A DNA stretch of 64,000 nucleotides, taken from a virus. Lineage: Duplodnaviria; Caudoviricetes. This document shows, in pieces, positions 39,779 through 51,071 of this stretch. Below the pieces are notes generated by a model, which was not told the DNA's origin, made no database searches, and saw only the letters and a list, made by a program, of their open reading frames with translations. The position numbers were made by a program, and so were the translations under genes. Position 1 is the stretch's first letter, and each line of letters starts with the position of its first letter. The stretch is from the IMG/VR virus record IMGVR_UViG_3300042935_001404; one strand, given 5' to 3'.

Positions 39779-41098
39779 TTATTGAGATCTTAACCACTGA
39801 ATTAGTCGTCGATGTAAATTATAAAGTTTTTTACTAGATCCTGGATCTTGTTTTAATATTTTTTTTCGTATCGCTCTTCGAAATATGCCACGTGGTTTTT
39901 TGACGAGTCGAAATGCATCTATAAAATTTGTTTTTAATTCTTCAATTACCTGTTGTTGAAATGCATCGCTAAAAAAATGTTTTTTGTTAAAATCCGCTAT
40001 GCGTCTAATTTCTAGTAAAAATTGATCAAACTCCGGTGCGCCAAGAGAATTAATTTTATTCAGGCTGTTGATAATTTTTTCAAGTCTTAACAAACTATTT
40101 GTCTCTTGATCATAACTTTCGTCAATCCAAGGAGCAAATGTTCGAAATCCGTAACTTCTTAGATATTCTAAACTATGCGGGCCTGCTGCCAACACAAATG
40201 GATGTCCGCAGGCAATTGGTCTCAGTATCTTTTCTGTCAAGTGAATTCTTGAGTCGTCAAATATAGTTTCCAAAACTACACTTATTGCAGTTGAATTAAA
40301 ATCATCATGATTGTACTGTGCGCTTTCGTTGCTGTCACTGTGATTGTCTTCAAACAGATCTAGTACAGTGCTGTCTTTGAGCGCAAAATTAATATTTTTA
40401 AATTTGTGGTCCCGGTAATGATACCCTTGATCGCCTTCGGACCGTCTTGATATACTGATTTTACTTTGTTCATGCAATCCATGTTTGACCAACAACTCTA
40501 TAAACTTTAATCTGTATTCTCTAGTGTTGCCCCAGGCACGATTGTATATTAGGAATTTTTTACAAACTTGAGATTGCGTTGTTAGCCGAGTATCTATCTC
40601 GGCAAATCTATACCAGTCACGAGCAATAATTGCATGGCACCAATAATAAACTGGTAAAAAATTATTTTGAGAATACTGTTCTAAGTCAACAGAATTTTTT
40701 TCAGAATGCAGTAAAATTGCCTGTTCATAAAGAGATCCACACAACAATGGTATTGACAATAAATTTTTATCAACCGCCGCTTGACTACTTATTTTGGCCA
40801 CAGTGGGTTCGTTTAATGCAATGTGTAATGACACAGGATCAATATTTGTATAAAAATTATAATGCAATGGCTCTTGGTCGTGTGCAACAACTGGAATGTT
40901 AATAAAATATGTTAGGCCGTCAACACCATTGGCGCCAAGAGCAGTCAATGCATCAAGATCAGTTAATGTATCAATATCAGTCAATGGTCTGAGGTCAGAA
41001 ATATCTTTACTACCGTGAGGATAAAATCTGTAAAATGCTGTCGGAACAGGTATAATCGATTGCACCCAGTGGTACAAATTGTCTAAGGGAATGTTCAT
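39779..41098 (-). CDS. putative glycosyltransferase-like protein (ET..TEK family)
   Basis: VVLETIF..LTEKILRPI..GHPF..GFRTF..DESYD. Confidence 0.45.
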   Translation of the reverse strand: MNIPLDNLYHWVQSIIPVPTAFYRFYPHGSKDISDLRPLTDIDTLTDLDALTALGANGVDGLTYFINIPVVAHDQEPLHYNFYTNIDPVSLHIALNEPTVAKISSQAAVDKNLLSIPLLCGSLYEQAILLHSEKNSVDLEQYSQNNFLPVYYWCHAIIARDWYRFAEIDTRLTTQSQVCKKFLIYNRAWGNTREYRLKFIELLVKHGLHEQSKISISRRSEGDQGYHYRDHKFKNINFALKDSTVLDLFEDNHSDSNESAQYNHDDFNSTAISVVLETIFDDSRIHLTEKILRPIACGHPFVLAAGPHSLEYLRSYGFRTFAPWIDESYDQETNSLLRLEKIINSLNKINSLGAPEFDQFLLEIRRIADFNKKHFFSDAFQQQVIEELKTNFIDAFRLVKKPRGIFRRAIRKKILKQDPGSSKKLYNLHRRLIQWLRSQ

Positions 41099-41121
41099 GC
41101 CATTGGATTTTGTCTTTGAAT

Positions 41122-41435
41122 AAAAGGTAATTTAATTCTGTTACGAGGATAAATTACCAAAAACCCTAGGCAGTGTTTAGACTGCCAATGCTTCCTTGGC
41201 TGTACGAGCAGAGAACTTGACGTTCTTACCAGAAACAGTTACGGTTTTGTTTACGTTTGCATTTACGTTTTTTGCTTGATTAACGGTCATCGCCTACCGT
41301 GCTGTCCACTTGTTTACTTGTTGCCCTGTCGAATCTAGTGCTCCCCCACCTAAATATACTGAATACATTTAGGTGGAGGAGGGGGGATTCGCACCCCCGT
41401 CCAAGACACTTTTCTCTTTGCTTCATACAGCAATA
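41122..41435 (-). ncRNA. ssrA: circularly permuted (two-piece) tmRNA
   Basis: acceptor piece ..GGACGGGGGTGCGAATCCCCC CTCCTCC A (ends ~41374) precedes coding piece GGGGGAG CACTAGATTCGAC (starts 41347); 7-bp acceptor stem with G3:U70; tag ORF 41260-41177. Confidence 0.9.
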
Positions 41436-41440
41436 ACTCT

Positions 41441-41448
41441 TATTTATA
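41441..41448 (-). promoter_or_regulatory. T4-like late promoter TATAAATA upstream of tmRNA
   Basis: exact octamer; also seen at 28204-28211, 35912-35919, 51055-51062 (-) and 44887-44894 (+). Confidence 0.55.
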
Positions 41449-41450
41449 AT

Positions 41451-41525
41451 TGGTTGCGGGGGAAGGACTCGAACCTCCGGCTTCCAGGTTATGAGCCTGG
41501 CGGTCTACCACTGACGTACCCCGCG
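41451..41525 (-). tRNA. tRNA-fMet(CAT), initiator type
   Basis: C1:A72 mismatch, CCAGG-CTCATAA-CCTGG, CCA. Confidence 0.88.
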
Positions 41526-41531
41526 ATAAAT

Positions 41532-41621
41532 TGGCGGAAGCGGTGAGATTCGAACTCACGAGGGACGTTGATCCCTGCTGGGTTAGTAATCCAGTGCCAT
41601 CGGCCACTCGGCCACGCTTCC
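41532..41621 (-). tRNA. tRNA-Ser(ACT), rare A34 anticodon
   Basis: long variable arm, G73, loop TT-ACT-AA, CCA. Confidence 0.85.
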
Positions 41622-48964: not shown

Positions 48965-48993
48965 AGTATAACACAATGGCTATATCTAGTCAA
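48965..48993 (-). promoter_or_regulatory. sigma70 promoter TTGACT-17-TATACT
   Basis: consensus boxes, TG upstream of -10. Confidence 0.8.
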
Positions 48994-49062
48994 TTTGTTT
49001 TGCAAAGTCCCTACACTGTGTAGGGTTATTTGCAGATCCAGCTAATTTCTTAACTTGTTTCT

Positions 49063-49091
49063 ATTGTAGCAAAATGGCGTTTAATTGTCAA
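49063..49091 (-). promoter_or_regulatory. sigma70 promoter TTGACA-17-TACAAT (tandem upstream)
   Basis: consensus boxes. Confidence 0.8.
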
Positions 49092-49132
49092 CTTAGTACT
49101 TTAGTATACCCTACGCACTGTAGGGTTATTAT

Positions 49133-49468: not shown

Positions 49469-49560
49469 TGGCGGAAGACGGAGGAGTCGAACCCCATCCC
49501 TGTTAAGAGAACCTGGTTTTCAAGGCCAGTCGCAGGACCGGTCCCGCTGCATCATCTTCC
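49469..49560 (-). tRNA. tRNA-Ser(TGA) with 8/4 acceptor/T-stem architecture
   Basis: acceptor GGAAGATG/CGTCTTCC (8 bp), T-stem GGGG/CCTC (4 bp), loop CTTGAAA, G73. Confidence 0.82.
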
Positions 49561-49569
49561 TAAAATGTG

Positions 49570-50331
49570 TTAAAGATTTTTAAAAACTTTTTTTATAATT
49601 GCACTGCGATCCAGTTTGGAACTGGCACCCAGCACAATGACTGCGTACTGTTGTTTGTTGTGTTCTACCAGCATGGCCACACACCATCCAGCAAGATTAG
49701 TAAATCCAGTCTTGCTCACGTCCACACGGGTAAACTCTGCCAACAGTGGACGGGATGTGTGAACCAGGTTCACAGAGCTGCCGCCTATTTTGTCAAGTTT
49801 TTTCAACAGCACAGTTGACTGCCCACTGGCTTCTTGTATAAACCAATAGTTGGCAGCAATCTGTACCATTTCTATTAGATCCCGTGCAGTGGACACATTG
49901 AACACACCCAGGCCTGACGGATCTACAAATTTAGTATTTCGAAGATTCCACATCCGGGCATGTCGATTCATTTCAGCTACAAAGGCAGATCGGCCTCCGG
50001 GGTAGTTCTGTGCAATGGTTTCGGCTGCTCCGTTGTCACTGCTGACCAGCATGGCCAGCAACAACTGTTCTCTGGTGTACCTGCCGGGCGGCAATCGACT
50101 GCCGGTGTTTTTTCTCAGCACCAACTGCTGTTGAAGATCTCTGTTGTGATCCAATGCAACCATGGCAGTCATCAACTTGGTCACACTGGCCATTGATCTG
50201 ATTTGATCACTATTTTGACTCAGTTCCGTGCGCTGTGCATTGATGTTGTAGACCAACACTGTGGGCTCACGTGCGTGGGCCGTTGCATTGGATAAAACTG
50301 TACAAAAAAGTACTGCGGCAAATAATTTCAT
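49570..50331 (-). CDS. D-alanyl-D-alanine carboxypeptidase/endopeptidase (peptidase S11)
   Basis: signal peptide; ASVTKLMTA (SxxK), SDN, KTG. Confidence 0.92.
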   Translation of the reverse strand: MKLFAAVLFCTVLSNATAHAREPTVLVYNINAQRTELSQNSDQIRSMASVTKLMTAMVALDHNRDLQQQLVLRKNTGSRLPPGRYTREQLLLAMLVSSDNGAAETIAQNYPGGRSAFVAEMNRHARMWNLRNTKFVDPSGLGVFNVSTARDLIEMVQIAANYWFIQEASGQSTVLLKKLDKIGGSSVNLVHTSRPLLAEFTRVDVSKTGFTNLAGWCVAMLVEHNKQQYAVIVLGASSKLDRSAIIKKVFKNL

Positions 50332-50349: not shown

Positions 50350-50424
50350 TGGAACACAGGACAGGACTCAAACCTGCATGATACGGATTTGCAATCCGTT
50401 GCGTAATCATTCCGCCACCTGTGC
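50350..50424 (-). tRNA. tRNA-Cys(GCA)
   Basis: ACGGA-TTGCAAA-TCCGT, U73, CCA; atypical D/T loops. Confidence 0.85.
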
Positions 50425-50575
50425 ATATACGTCGAACACACTGTTTCCAATGTGTGTATTAAAGCACTCTAAAATACTTAGGCTGCCTGTTCTTAAAGAA
50501 TGCTTTAATACGAACTAATTTTTCCTCCCACACAAGGGATTCCATCCTAGTCGCCGCCCGTTCGTGCTTGTTTAT

Positions 50576-50605
50576 AGTGTAGCACAGGACCTCGTTTCCT
50601 GTCAA
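50576..50605 (-). promoter_or_regulatory. possible sigma70 promoter TTGACA-18-TACACT
   Basis: boxes upstream of tRNA-Cys. Confidence 0.5.
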
Positions 50606-50616
50606 CACTTTAGGAT

Positions 50617-50778
50617 TTATGTCCAAAGTTGATTCTTGACTCGCATGCGAGTTTCGAGTTCCAACCTAGCACGTTCCAACTTTTCCCGAATCAACTTTTC
50701 ACGTTGTTCCGGTGTCAGTGTGTGCTCTGTTGTGTACTTTACTTCACGCATTCGTTGTTTTAAATCTAATTTCTTCAT
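50617..50778 (-). CDS. 53-aa charged small protein MKKLDLKQRMREVKYTTEHTL..
   Basis: hand-translated; SD AAGGA just after terminator. Confidence 0.6.
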   Translation of the reverse strand: MKKLDLKQRMREVKYTTEHTLTPEQREKLIREKLERARLELETRMRVKNQLWT

Positions 50779-50790
50779 TTTTCCTTTTCT

Positions 50791-50828
50791 AAAAACAAAA
50801 AACCCTAGGGTTTTTAATCCTAGGGTCC
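50791..50828 (-). terminator. intrinsic terminator (attenuator-type)
   Basis: ACCCTAGG/CCTAGGGT stem followed by TTTTTGTTTTT. Confidence 0.8.
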
Positions 50829-50853
50829 TTGGAGTTTGTGTGTAAACTTTTAT

Positions 50854-50994
50854 TTACGACATGGTCTCCTGGACCCTGGTACCCTCTGGTGTGCGATCAT
50901 ATGACATGCTATTGATTGCCGACCAAATAGAGGGCGCGAAGCCGGCCTGTTTGGCTAAACAATTTGATATAGAATGTAATACGTTTGTTTGCAT
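50854..50994 (-). CDS. 46-aa putative leader peptide MQTNVLHSIS..SYDRTPEGTRVQETMS
   Basis: between promoter and terminator; contains anti-terminator strand AGGGTCC. Confidence 0.55.
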   Translation of the reverse strand: MQTNVLHSISNCLAKQAGFAPSIWSAINSMSYDRTPEGTRVQETMS

Positions 50995-51042
50995 TTTTGT
51001 TTCTTTAAATTTATATACACCTTTTTATTGGCGCATGTGTGT

Positions 51043-51071
51043 ATTGTATAGGTTTATTTATACAAGGTCAA
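51043..51071 (-). promoter_or_regulatory. sigma70 promoter TTGACC-17-TACAAT with nested TATAAATA
   Basis: boxes and late motif at 51055-51062. Confidence 0.7.

What the first reader, a model, noticed from the sequence alone, without database searches (positions are those of the whole stretch)
50791..51071. Leader-peptide attenuator upstream of the tRNA array
Seen: promoter (51071-51043), a 46-codon ORF (50994-50854), then a strong terminator (ACCCTAGG/CCTAGGGT plus U-tract). Leader codons T39-Q42 contain AGGGTCC (50877-50871), perfectly complementary to GGACCCT in the terminator 5' arm, so the two structures are mutually exclusive. Established: this is the classic transcription-attenuation topology. 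The leader has no run of a single amino acid. Inference: ribosome stalling near SYDRTPE, from general translation stress or an arrest peptide, permits read-through into the 53-aa ORF and the tRNA genes.
Basis: partly seen in the sequence, partly recalled or inferred. Interest (0 to 1): 0.75.

Follow-up and report, generated by a model that had tools for sequence, protein, structure and literature searches.

The report
Twenty-amino-acid leader switch before phage tRNAs
An uncultured lake-water giant phage, like more than 200 related contigs, puts a tiny gene spelling all 20 amino acids, wired to an on/off transcription stop, ahead of its tRNA genes, so it probably lets transcription run on when ribosomes decode slowly.

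Summary
Comparison with relatives turns it from a single-sequence coincidence into a selected RNA switch.

- **Conservation:** The module is a near-consensus sigma-70 promoter, a 32-60-codon ORF, a long hairpin and an intrinsic terminator. It recurs in over 200 IMG/VR stretches, nearly always at the head of a same-strand tRNA array.
- **Shared strand:** The hairpin and the terminator share one strand. I found 30 sequence versions of that strand. Its upstream partner and the terminator 3' arm change with it.
- **RNA constraint:** AGGGTCC is kept in all three reading frames.
- **Stop codon:** It lies inside the hairpin in 125 of 125 cases.
- **Leader composition:** All 20 amino acids occur in 68 of 87 leaders, against 3-5% by chance. 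The single Cys occupies 18 different alignment columns. An independently anchored set gave 43 of 68 loci against 0.9% of control windows.

Most likely this is a ribosome-mediated attenuator that senses slow decoding of any amino acid. It would gate a conserved uncatalogued structured RNA and the tRNAs. Nothing was shown experimentally.

In this clade a second promoter-like site may bypass the gate.

This scan reached the same reading earlier on other phage genomes. I found no published description.

The parts
51043..51071 (-). Promoter P1: TTGACC, 17-nt spacer, TACAAT
   Evidence: In relatives, 84 of 98 distinct upstream regions score 11-12 of 12 against TTGACA-17-TATAAT.
51016..51035 (-). Hairpin in the 5' untranslated region (UGCGCC...GGUGUA)
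   Evidence: MFE. Relatives carry a hairpin of different sequence at the same place, read by eye. Some relatives lack the untranslated region altogether, with the -10 hexamer 6-7 nt before the ATG.
50854..50994 (-). Leader ORF, 46 codons plus TAA, holding all 20 amino acids
   Evidence: pN/pS is 0.42.
50871..50879 (-). Anti-terminator 5' strand (CC-AGGGUCC), helix Pa
   Evidence: It is kept in three reading frames and co-varies with the shared strand.
50831..50869 (-). Inner part of the anti-terminator hairpin. Pb is GGAG 50869-50866 paired with CUCC 50834-50831. The apical hairpin Pc is 50861-50839 and holds the stop codon UAA at 50856-50854.
   Evidence: Cognate halves fold at -9.4 kcal/mol against -5.5 for chimeras. 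The stop codon lies inside the hairpin in 125 of 125 cases.
50819..50828 (-). Shared strand GGACCCUAGG. It is the 3' strand of the anti-terminator and the 5' arm of the terminator.
   Evidence: Relatives show 30 sequence versions, each matched by its own partners.
50791..50818 (-). Terminator loop, 3' arm CCUAGGGU (50809-50802) and U-tract (50801-50791)
50617..50778 (-). 53-aa charged ORF with an AAGGA Shine-Dalgarno. It is the first gene after the terminator and is optional in the family.
   Evidence: About 45 of 75 relatives have such an ORF, judged from spacing. It gives a weak phrog_20536 match, E = 1.3e-4.
50576..50605 (-). Promoter-like site P2: TTGACA, 18-nt spacer, TACACT with an upstream TG. 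It overlaps two conserved RNA hairpins.
   Evidence: The -35 hexamer is absent outside this clade.
50433..50611 (-). Conserved structured RNA between the attenuator and the first tRNA. Features: AAAGUGUG, hairpin 1 (loop AACGAGG), hairpin 2 (loop CACUAUAAACA), AACGGGCGG, further helices.
   Evidence: z = -3.2. Hairpin 1 has 52 distinct stems and hairpin 2 has 69. No Rfam match.
50350..50424 (-). tRNA-Cys, the first gene of the 25-gene tRNA array that runs down to 35411

Best explanation
This is a ribosome-mediated transcription attenuator whose leader peptide samples all 20 amino acids.

**Proposed sequence of events**
1. Host RNA polymerase starts at the strong promoter P1 and a ribosome translates the 46-codon leader.
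2. Fast decoding: the ribosome reaches the last codons or the UAA, which lies inside the hairpin, while the polymerase is making the terminator. The ribosome holds the inner helices open, so the long anti-terminator cannot form. The shared strand GGACCCU folds into the terminator and transcription stops at about 50795.
3. Slow decoding: the ribosome lags or stalls at or before about codon 37, for want of any charged tRNA or because translation is damaged. AGGGUCC then captures the shared strand, the terminator cannot form, and the polymerase runs on.
4. Read-through covers the 53-aa ORF, the conserved structured RNA and the tRNA genes.
5. No upstream 'protector' helix was seen, so an untranslated leader should also read through.

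**What is shown and what is inferred**
- Shown: the structures, their mutual exclusivity, their co-variation, the position of the stop codon, the selection for all 20 residues, and the link to tRNA arrays.
- Inferred: the direction of the switch, its trigger, and the idea that it serves tRNA supply, for example when host defences cut tRNAs.
For: **The two folds exclude each other**
- The leader fold has z = -5.2.
- The MFE uses the anti-terminator in 96 of 99 relatives.
- The two states are nearly equal in energy: -26.7 against -24.7 kcal/mol.

**The alternative pairing is under selection**
- There are 30 versions of the shared strand.
- In 25 of 29 rare versions the upstream strand pairs better with its own partner than with the common one (-14.6 against -11.4 kcal/mol). 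The terminator 3' arms match too.
- Example: GGACCCC goes with GGGGUCC in 10 of 11 cases.
- AGGGTCC sits in frame 0, 1 or 2 in 73, 4 and 13 leaders.
- The inner hairpin co-varies.

**The geometry is fixed**
- The stop codon lies between the two strands in 125 of 125 cases.
- It is a median of 14 nt after the 5' strand and about 24-27 nt before the shared strand.
- It is UAA in 87 of 90 leaders.

**The leader is selected to hold all 20 amino acids**
- 68 of 87 distinct leaders have all 20, against 3.1% of 46-residue windows of real proteins and 4.5% of random draws.
- 61 of 90 have all 20 already upstream of AGGGUCC.
- Among 37 representatives, 25 have all 20, against 5.1 +/- 2.0 after column shuffling (0 of 5000 shuffles reach it).
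- Cys occurs exactly once in 31 of 37 but in 18 different columns.
- In loci found through the downstream RNA alone, 43 of 68 have an all-20 small ORF, against 0.9% of control windows. These include unrelated-looking leaders of 35-44 residues.

**The context is constant**
- A same-strand tRNA array follows in every set-1 locus with enough sequence and in 73 of 75 set-2 loci.
- P1 is near consensus.
- In about 30 of 75 relatives the structured RNA follows the terminator within 5-45 nt. Its co-varying 5' hairpins can then only be transcribed by read-through.
Against: - There is no experiment. The RNA-library contigs are uninformative on ends and levels.
- A plausible extra promoter (50605-50576) could feed the tRNAs in this clade independently of the switch.
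- Further promoters lie inside the array at 49091, 48993 and 44994. At most the first segment is therefore gated.
- The leader also has position-conserved residues (W in 36 of 37 representatives; DRTPE), with pN/pS 0.42. A role for the peptide itself is not excluded.
- Both Glu codons here (E37, E43) lie so close to AGGGUCC that a stall on them may not free it.
- Leader codons are not enriched for codons read by the phage's own tRNAs: 35 of 46 against 35.7 expected. This is not a specific feedback on the phage tRNAs.
- The first relative set was collected with a pattern that fixed the terminator sequence. Only set 2 is unbiased for it.
Confidence: 0.72

Rival explanations
1. An ordinary small phage protein gene with its own terminator. 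The peptide (W...DRTPE) would act in trans. The long hairpin around the stop codon would only stabilise or shape the 3' end of its mRNA. The tRNAs would be made from P2 and the internal promoters.
For: - Position-conserved W and DRTPE, and purifying selection with pN/pS 0.42.
- P2 and the internal promoters exist.
- Leader peptides with trans functions are known, for example peTrpL (abstract of PMC7298713, listed).
Against: - A folded or binding peptide does not explain a single Cys that wanders over 18 columns, or all 20 residues in 35-50 positions across unrelated-looking leaders.
- The tail after DRTPE is read in three frames.
- A stabilising hairpin need not share a strand with the terminator through 30 co-varying versions.
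- P2 is not conserved outside this clade.
- In about 40% of relatives nothing but the terminator separates the leader from the structured RNA.
Confidence: 0.1
2. A translation-coupled switch with a different signal. It would report whether ribosomes are engaged at all, for example early host shut-off, ribosome damage, or loss of transcription-translation coupling, rather than the supply of each charged tRNA. The all-20 composition would then be a by-product or serve another purpose.
For: - No protector helix was seen, so an untranslated leader should read through.
- Some relatives have leaderless mRNAs.
- Leader codons are not matched to the phage's tRNAs.
- Known uORF attenuators such as whiB7 respond to many kinds of translation stress (abstract of PMC10274678).
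Against: A pure coupling sensor needs no particular composition. Yet all 20 residues are maintained by compensating changes.
Confidence: 0.12
3. An RNA-processing or insulating element. The long hairpin would be a double-strand RNase site separating the leader mRNA from the tRNA precursor, and the terminator would be constitutive.
For: The hairpin is long, with about 20 pairs and internal loops. It lies at the 5' edge of a stable-RNA cluster.
Against: - A processing site does not require the stop codon at a fixed place inside the hairpin.
- It does not require competition with the terminator.
- It does not require a leader of special composition.
Confidence: 0.04

Closest known systems
Leader-peptide transcription attenuators of amino-acid operons (trpL, hisL, pheL, thrL, leuL, and the multivalent ilv leaders)
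   Same: A promoter-proximal short ORF. An intrinsic terminator whose 5' arm is shared with an upstream anti-terminator. The position of the ribosome decides which fold forms. The general mechanism is as summarised in the abstract of PMC1183508 (listed) and from my own knowledge.
   Different: - There is no run of codons for one amino acid. Instead every amino acid is present, mostly once or twice.
- No 1:2 protector or pause helix was found, so an untranslated leader should read through rather than terminate.
- The stop codon lies inside the anti-terminator rather than before it.
- The genes behind it are a structured RNA and tRNAs in a phage, not biosynthetic enzymes.
whiB7 (wblC) uORF attenuator of mycobacteria and other actinobacteria
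   Same: A uORF whose stalling is believed to cause antitermination. It responds to many inputs, including amino-acid biosynthesis, tRNA and tRNA-synthetase depletion. The uORF's coding sequence sets what it senses (abstract of PMC10274678).
   Different: - The whiB7 uORF is enriched for alanine, not balanced over all 20 residues.
- It controls a transcription factor for drug tolerance.
- It is cellular, not viral.
- There is no sequence relation.
Antibiotic-responsive leader-peptide attenuators of resistance genes in Firmicutes (for example bmrCD, vmlR and the Listeria lmo0919 type)
   Same: Ribosome stalling in a short leader ORF shifts a terminator to an anti-terminator fold. The switch therefore reports general damage to translation. 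This rests on my own knowledge and was not checked here.
   Different: Their trigger is drug-bound ribosomes. Their targets are efflux or ribosome-protection genes. No balanced-composition leader is described for them.
T-box riboswitches
   Same: Both are transcription attenuation systems that respond to the charging state of tRNA.
   Different: T-boxes bind one uncharged tRNA directly and need no translation. No T-box or any other Rfam family matches this region.

Membership tests
Ribosome-mediated (leader-peptide) transcription attenuator | Short translated ORF between the promoter and the regulated genes | tested here: met
   The ORF is 50994-50854. The frame is kept through indels in 87 distinct relatives. 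pN/pS is 0.42. Translation itself was not observed.
Ribosome-mediated (leader-peptide) transcription attenuator | Intrinsic terminator (G+C-rich hairpin plus U-tract) downstream of the leader ORF | tested here: met
   Located at 50826-50791. It is present with compensatory changes in relatives.
Ribosome-mediated (leader-peptide) transcription attenuator | Anti-terminator that shares a strand with the terminator, so that the two folds exclude each other | tested here: met
   There is three-way co-variation over 30 versions of the shared strand.
Ribosome-mediated (leader-peptide) transcription attenuator | Ribosome position can select the fold: the stop or regulatory codons lie next to or within the anti-terminator | tested here: met
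   The stop codon lies inside the anti-terminator in 125 of 125 cases, a median of 14 nt after its 5' strand. The functional consequence is inferred.
Ribosome-mediated (leader-peptide) transcription attenuator | Clustered regulatory codons for the amino acid whose pathway is controlled | tested here: not met
   There is no run of any residue. Instead all 20 kinds are present.
Ribosome-mediated (leader-peptide) transcription attenuator | Upstream protector or pause helix (trp 1:2) that gives termination when the leader is not translated | tested here: inconclusive
   The folds show no conserved helix that sequesters AGGGUCC. The only upstream pairing in this window (CCCUCU with AGAGGG) is absent in relatives. 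No dedicated search was made.
Ribosome-mediated (leader-peptide) transcription attenuator | Read-through depends on leader translation and on charged-tRNA supply | not testable with these tools
   This needs reporter or in vitro assays. The RNA-library contigs cannot show transcript ends or levels.
whiB7-type uORF attenuator | Alanine-enriched uORF upstream of a WhiB-family regulator | tested here: not met
   The family composition is Ala 5.0%. The downstream genes are RNAs. The feature is taken from the abstract of PMC10274678.
T-box riboswitch or any Rfam cis-regulator | Match to a curated covariance model | tested here: not met
   No match between 50425 and 51071 at E <= 1. No match in 13 related loci at E <= 0.1.

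The most novel reading that the evidence does not exclude
The module would be a universal decoding gauge. A phage-borne test message contains every amino acid. It would switch on a translation-repair set whenever any one codon class is read slowly, for instance after host anticodon nucleases or other tRNA-depleting defences strike. The repair set is the uncatalogued structured RNA, a full tRNA set, and further downstream a phage tmRNA. That would be the first attenuator known to control tRNA genes, the first to sense the whole charged-tRNA pool, and a regulated counter-defence.
Probability: 0.4. Interest if true: 0.9.

Novelty: new variant of a known kind. Interest (0 to 1): 0.8.

Why it matters
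Phage tRNA arrays are usually discussed as constitutive codon-usage helpers or as spare parts against tRNA-cleaving host defences.

A conserved switch at their head implies that they are made on demand. It also offers a sensor that reports slow decoding of any amino acid.

This gives a directly testable answer to how and when giant phages deploy their tRNAs. It extends leader-peptide attenuation from single-amino-acid sensing to whole-pool sensing. It also supplies a compact natural part, about 280 nt, that could serve as a reporter of translation stress.

The uncatalogued structured RNA gated by the switch is a further unknown.

Tried and rejected
**Searches that found nothing**
- INPHARED phage records hold no relative of the region beyond tRNA-Cys, and no relative of either small ORF.
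- Pfam gives nothing for the leader. PHROGs gives only a weak hit for the 53-aa ORF.
- No whole genome is held for the window.
- Four literature searches found no description of such a switch.

**Analyses that were uninformative**
- RNAalifold on the MAFFT alignment returned only the terminator, because the variable middle is misaligned. I therefore used cognate-against-chimera and cognate-against-non-cognate energy tests.
- RNA-library contigs: depth peaks at 50792-50828 only because contigs of many relatives pile up on the conserved core. Some contigs of relatives run across the terminator into downstream sequence, and one reaches the structured RNA. DNA carry-over cannot be excluded, and contigs show no transcript ends. 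This is not used as evidence.

**Ideas rejected**
- Leader codons tuned to the phage's own tRNAs: 35 of 46 are readable against 35.7 expected, P = 0.67.
- A TnaC-like arrest peptide: the W24-P36 spacing of 12 in this window is not kept in relatives, where it is 11-14 or more.
- The motifs AAAGTGTK and GC..CACTWTAAAC as a repeated phage promoter: each occurs only once in the window at full match.
- Other copies of the switch in the window: no comparable terminator lies inside the array.

Full report
**1. What is in the window**

All features are read on the minus strand.
- Promoter P1: TTGACC (51071-51066), a 17-nt spacer and TACAAT (51048-51043). It scores 10 of 12 consensus matches.
- A 48-nt untranslated region with a small hairpin.
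- An ATG ORF of 46 codons, 50994-50854.
- Anti-terminator strand: codons 40-42 contain AGGGTCC (50877-50871).
- Shared strand: GGACCCT lies 43 nt further on (50828-50822). It overlaps the 5' arm of an 8-bp hairpin (ACCCTAGG, 9-nt loop, CCTAGGGT) followed by TTTTTTGTTTTT (to 50791).
- The stock terminator scan missed this hairpin because of its loop limit. My own scan scores it at -12.6 to -16.1 kcal/mol. It is the only good intrinsic terminator on this strand at the head of the tRNA cluster.
- Downstream: a 53-aa ORF with a good Shine-Dalgarno (50778-50617), then a second promoter-like site (50605-50576; TTGACA, 18 nt, TACACT).
- Then about 180 nt without an ORF, then tRNA-Cys (50424-50350). 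This is the first of 25 tRNA genes and a tmRNA on the same strand.

In a single sequence the 7-mer complementarity is not remarkable. There are 4 copies in 64 kb against 3.2 expected. The fold of the 251-nt leader is remarkable. Its MFE is -69.9 kcal/mol against -46.8 +/- 4.4 for shuffles, and it uses the anti-terminator pairing.

**2. The source**

The window has no relative among deposited phage genomes.

It has many relatives among IMG/VR contigs, up to 346-364 kb long. The DNA occurs in lake-water metagenomes from many studies. It is therefore an uncultured freshwater giant phage.

Two observations give a weak hint to a betaproteobacterial host.
- One 6-kb contig binned into a Polynucleobacter MAG carries the element.
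- The phage tmRNA matches the betaproteobacterial tmRNA model.

**3. Two sets of relatives**

- *Set 1* was collected with the pattern GGACCCTAGG, 6-10 nt, CCCTRGGGTTTT. This set fixes the terminator sequence by construction. It leaves everything upstream free.
- *Set 2* was collected with a pattern taken only from the conserved RNA downstream. It also hit 118 stretches, 87 of them new. It is unbiased for leader and terminator.

**4. The hairpin and the terminator form a selected two-state switch**

Set 1:
- The MFE pairs the shared strand upstream in 96 of 99 sequences.
- The two states are nearly iso-energetic, at -26.7 against -24.7 kcal/mol.
- The hairpin has three tiers. Pa is AGGGUCC with GGACCCU. 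Pb is usually GGAG with CUCC or CUUC, but also AAGUG/CACUU, AAAAG/CUUUU and UGUGG/CCAUA. Pc is a variable apical hairpin.
- Cognate inner halves fold at -9.4 kcal/mol against -5.5 for chimeras. A median of only 8% of foreign partners do as well.
- AGGGTCC is read in frame 0, 1 or 2 in 73, 4 and 13 leaders. It gives RV, GP or GS. It is therefore conserved as RNA, not as protein.

Set 2:
- The shared strand itself varies, and its two partners follow.
- GGACCCC goes with GGGGUCC in 10 of 11 cases, and with CCUGGGG.
- GGAACCCU goes with GGGUUC.
- AGACCCU goes with GGGUCU.
- In more distant loci there are quite different trios, for example GAAACCCCUGGG / CCAGGGGUUUC / CUCAGGGGU, and GGAAGCCGCU / ACGGCUUCC / AGCGGCU.
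- In all there are 30 versions of the shared strand.
- In 25 of 29 rare versions the upstream region binds its own shared strand better than the common one (-14.6 against -11.4 kcal/mol).

This three-way compensation is what one expects if both folds, and their competition, are under selection.

**5. The ORF is real and is tied to the switch**

- 87 distinct peptides of 41-50 residues keep the frame through many indels.
- Over the first 36 codons pN/pS is 0.42.
- The stop codon lies between the two strands of Pa in 125 of 125 attenuators.
- It is a median of 14 nt after the 5' strand and 24 nt (plus 3) before the shared strand.
- It is UAA in 87 of 90.

A ribosome on the last codons or on the stop therefore sits on Pb and Pc and touches the end of Pa. 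The shared strand stays free.

**6. The leader is selected to contain every amino acid**

I tested it.

*Frequency*
- The window's leader has all 20 kinds in 46 residues.
- So do 68 of 87 family members. The rest have 18-19.
- The expectation is 3.1% for 46-residue windows of this phage's own proteins and 4.5% for random draws from its composition.
- 61 of 90 reach 20 kinds already in the 34-42 codons upstream of AGGGUCC.

*Not explained by inherited positions*
- Among 37 representatives below 70% identity, 25 have all 20.
- Column shuffling gives 5.1 +/- 2.0, and none of 5000 shuffles reaches 25.
- The rare residues are under-dispersed. Cys occurs exactly once in 31 of 37 but in 18 different columns (mean 0.95, variance 0.16).

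*Independent confirmation in set 2*
- 43 of 68 loci have an all-20 small ORF in the 600 nt upstream of the RNA motif, against 0.9% of 335 control windows.
- These include leaders of 35-44 residues that look unrelated to the window's. They have the same hairpin-stop-terminator layout.
- Among all six-frame small ORFs of these loci, 4.6% have 20 kinds, and most of those are leaders.

*Not tuned to the phage's own tRNAs*
- 35 of 46 leader codons are readable by the phage tRNAs, against 35.7 expected.
- The array here lacks tRNA-Phe, while the leader has Phe.

What is sampled is amino-acid kinds, not the phage's anticodons.

**7. Context**

- In set 1 every locus with enough sequence has a same-strand tRNA array 170-1414 nt downstream, with up to 34 tRNAs in the fetched stretch. 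There are mostly none upstream.
- In set 2, 73 of 75 loci have a tRNA after the RNA motif, at a median of 193 nt.
- P1 scores 11-12 of 12 in 84 of 98 distinct upstream regions. In a subset the -10 hexamer lies 6-7 nt before the ATG, which suggests a leaderless mRNA.
- Between terminator and first tRNA lies a conserved structured RNA. Its features are AAAGUGUG, a hairpin with loop AACGAGG (52 distinct stems), a hairpin with loop CACUAUAAACA (69 distinct stems), AACGGGCGG, and further helices.
- This RNA has no Rfam match.
- In about 30 of 75 relatives this RNA starts 5-45 nt after the U-tract, leaving no room for a promoter. Its co-varying 5' hairpins must then be transcribed through the terminator.
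- In the other 45 or so, a roughly 50-aa charged ORF like the window's is inserted.
- In the window's clade the sequence around the first two hairpins also reads as a sigma-70 promoter. The -35 hexamer is not present in other clades.
- P2 may therefore be a clade-specific bypass or a chance resemblance. RNA started there would lack the first hairpin.

**8. Mechanism**

*Shown:* two mutually exclusive, co-varying folds; the stop codon at a fixed place inside one of them; a leader kept complete in amino-acid kinds; a strong promoter; tRNA genes behind.

*Inferred:*
- A ribosome that keeps pace with the polymerase is on the last codons or the stop when the terminator is made. It holds Pb and Pc open and lets the local terminator win.
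- A ribosome delayed at any codon up to about codon 37 leaves AGGGUCC free to capture the shared strand, so transcription continues.
- The ribosome unwinds mRNA to about 11 nt past the first base of the P-site codon (from my own knowledge of the ribosomal helicase; not checked here).
- On that basis the Glu codon of DRTPE, usually 9 nt before AGGGUCC, is about the last A-site position that still leaves Pa free. It does not show an arrest peptide.
- I saw no conserved helix that would sequester AGGGUCC in the absence of translation. The default without ribosomes should therefore be read-through, unlike trp.

**9. Comparison and novelty**

The mechanism is that of leader-peptide attenuation.

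Three things are new:
- the regulatory logic, with every amino acid present rather than a run of one;
- the target, which is tRNA genes and an unknown RNA;
- the setting, which is a phage.

The nearest functional precedent I could read is the whiB7 uORF. It responds to depletion of many amino acids, tRNAs and synthetases, and its coding sequence sets its specificity. It is alanine-rich and controls a transcription factor (PMC10274678).

Four literature searches found no description of a leader-peptide switch on tRNA genes.

The same scan has already reported this kind of switch on several other phage genomes, with the same reading. This window is therefore another member of a family that the scan discovered. 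It is not the first sighting.

**10. Limits**

- Nothing here shows transcripts, ends or translation.
- The RNA-library contigs only show that sequences of relatives spanning the terminator occur in RNA libraries, and DNA carry-over is possible.
- The all-20 tests control for inherited positions but not with an explicit tree.
- The position-conserved W and DRTPE remain unexplained.

Noticed in passing
window 50433-50611 (-): A conserved structured RNA of about 180 nt lies between the attenuator and tRNA-Cys. Its features are AAAGUGUG, a hairpin with loop AACGAGG, a hairpin with loop CACUAUAAACA, AACGGGCGG, a helix enclosing GAUGG plus a hairpin plus AAAAAU, and a long UAUUAAAGCA/UGCUUUAAUA stem. 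The 5' AAAGUGUG can pair with the 3' CACACAUU, and in this clade CACACAUU can also pair with a following AGUGUGUU. There are many compensatory changes and no Rfam match. Its function is unknown.
   Followed up: partly
window 41086-41525 (-): A phage-encoded tmRNA lies inside the tRNA cluster. It matches the permuted tmRNA model (129.9 bits) and the betaproteobacterial tmRNA model (96.5 bits; gathering score 84). In relative L066 a tmRNA lies upstream of the leader promoter instead.
   Followed up: no
window 49473-49560 (-): A tRNA-like stretch that ARAGORN missed. It gives only a sub-threshold match to the tRNA-Sec model (35.2 bits against 47). The same feature recurs in relatives L115 and L187.
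   Followed up: no
window 48965-49126 (-): Two near-consensus sigma-70 promoters lie 98 nt apart (49091-49063 and 48993-48965). Each is preceded by a short ACCCUAC...GUAGGGU-type hairpin, just after tRNA-Trp. They are internal promoters of the array.
   Followed up: no
window 49570-50331 (-): A secreted D-alanyl-D-alanine carboxypeptidase gene (Peptidase_S11, E = 9e-35) sits between tRNA-Cys and the next tRNA block, inside the array.
   Followed up: no
window 50617-50778 (-); relatives: The 53-aa charged ORF after the terminator belongs to a family with the motif EHTLT..EQ...LI..K.ERA. It is present in about 45 of 75 relatives and absent in the rest, so it is an optional insertion between the switch and the structured RNA. 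It gives a weak match to phrog_20536.
   Followed up: partly
relatives, e.g. L062, L050, L131, L146: In a subset of relatives the -10 hexamer of P1 ends 6-7 nt before the leader ATG. That implies a leaderless mRNA for the leader ORF. Most others have a 45-60-nt untranslated region with a hairpin that differs in sequence between clades.
   Followed up: partly
L238 (JBBAKF010000113.1, 6.2 kb): The only hit to the terminator pattern among 185,579 species genomes is a short contig binned into a Polynucleobacter MAG. It is probably phage DNA, and it is a weak hint to the host.
   Followed up: partly
window 41532-41621 (-): ARAGORN calls a tRNA-Ser with the anticodon ACT, which is unusual.
   Followed up: no
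window 50885-50890 and 50929-50937 (-): In this window AGAGGG (codons P36-E37-G38) can pair with CCCUCU (codons A20-P21-S22) or with the freed terminator 3' arm ACCCU. Relatives with CCAGAGAUU lack this pairing, so it is probably incidental.
   Followed up: partly
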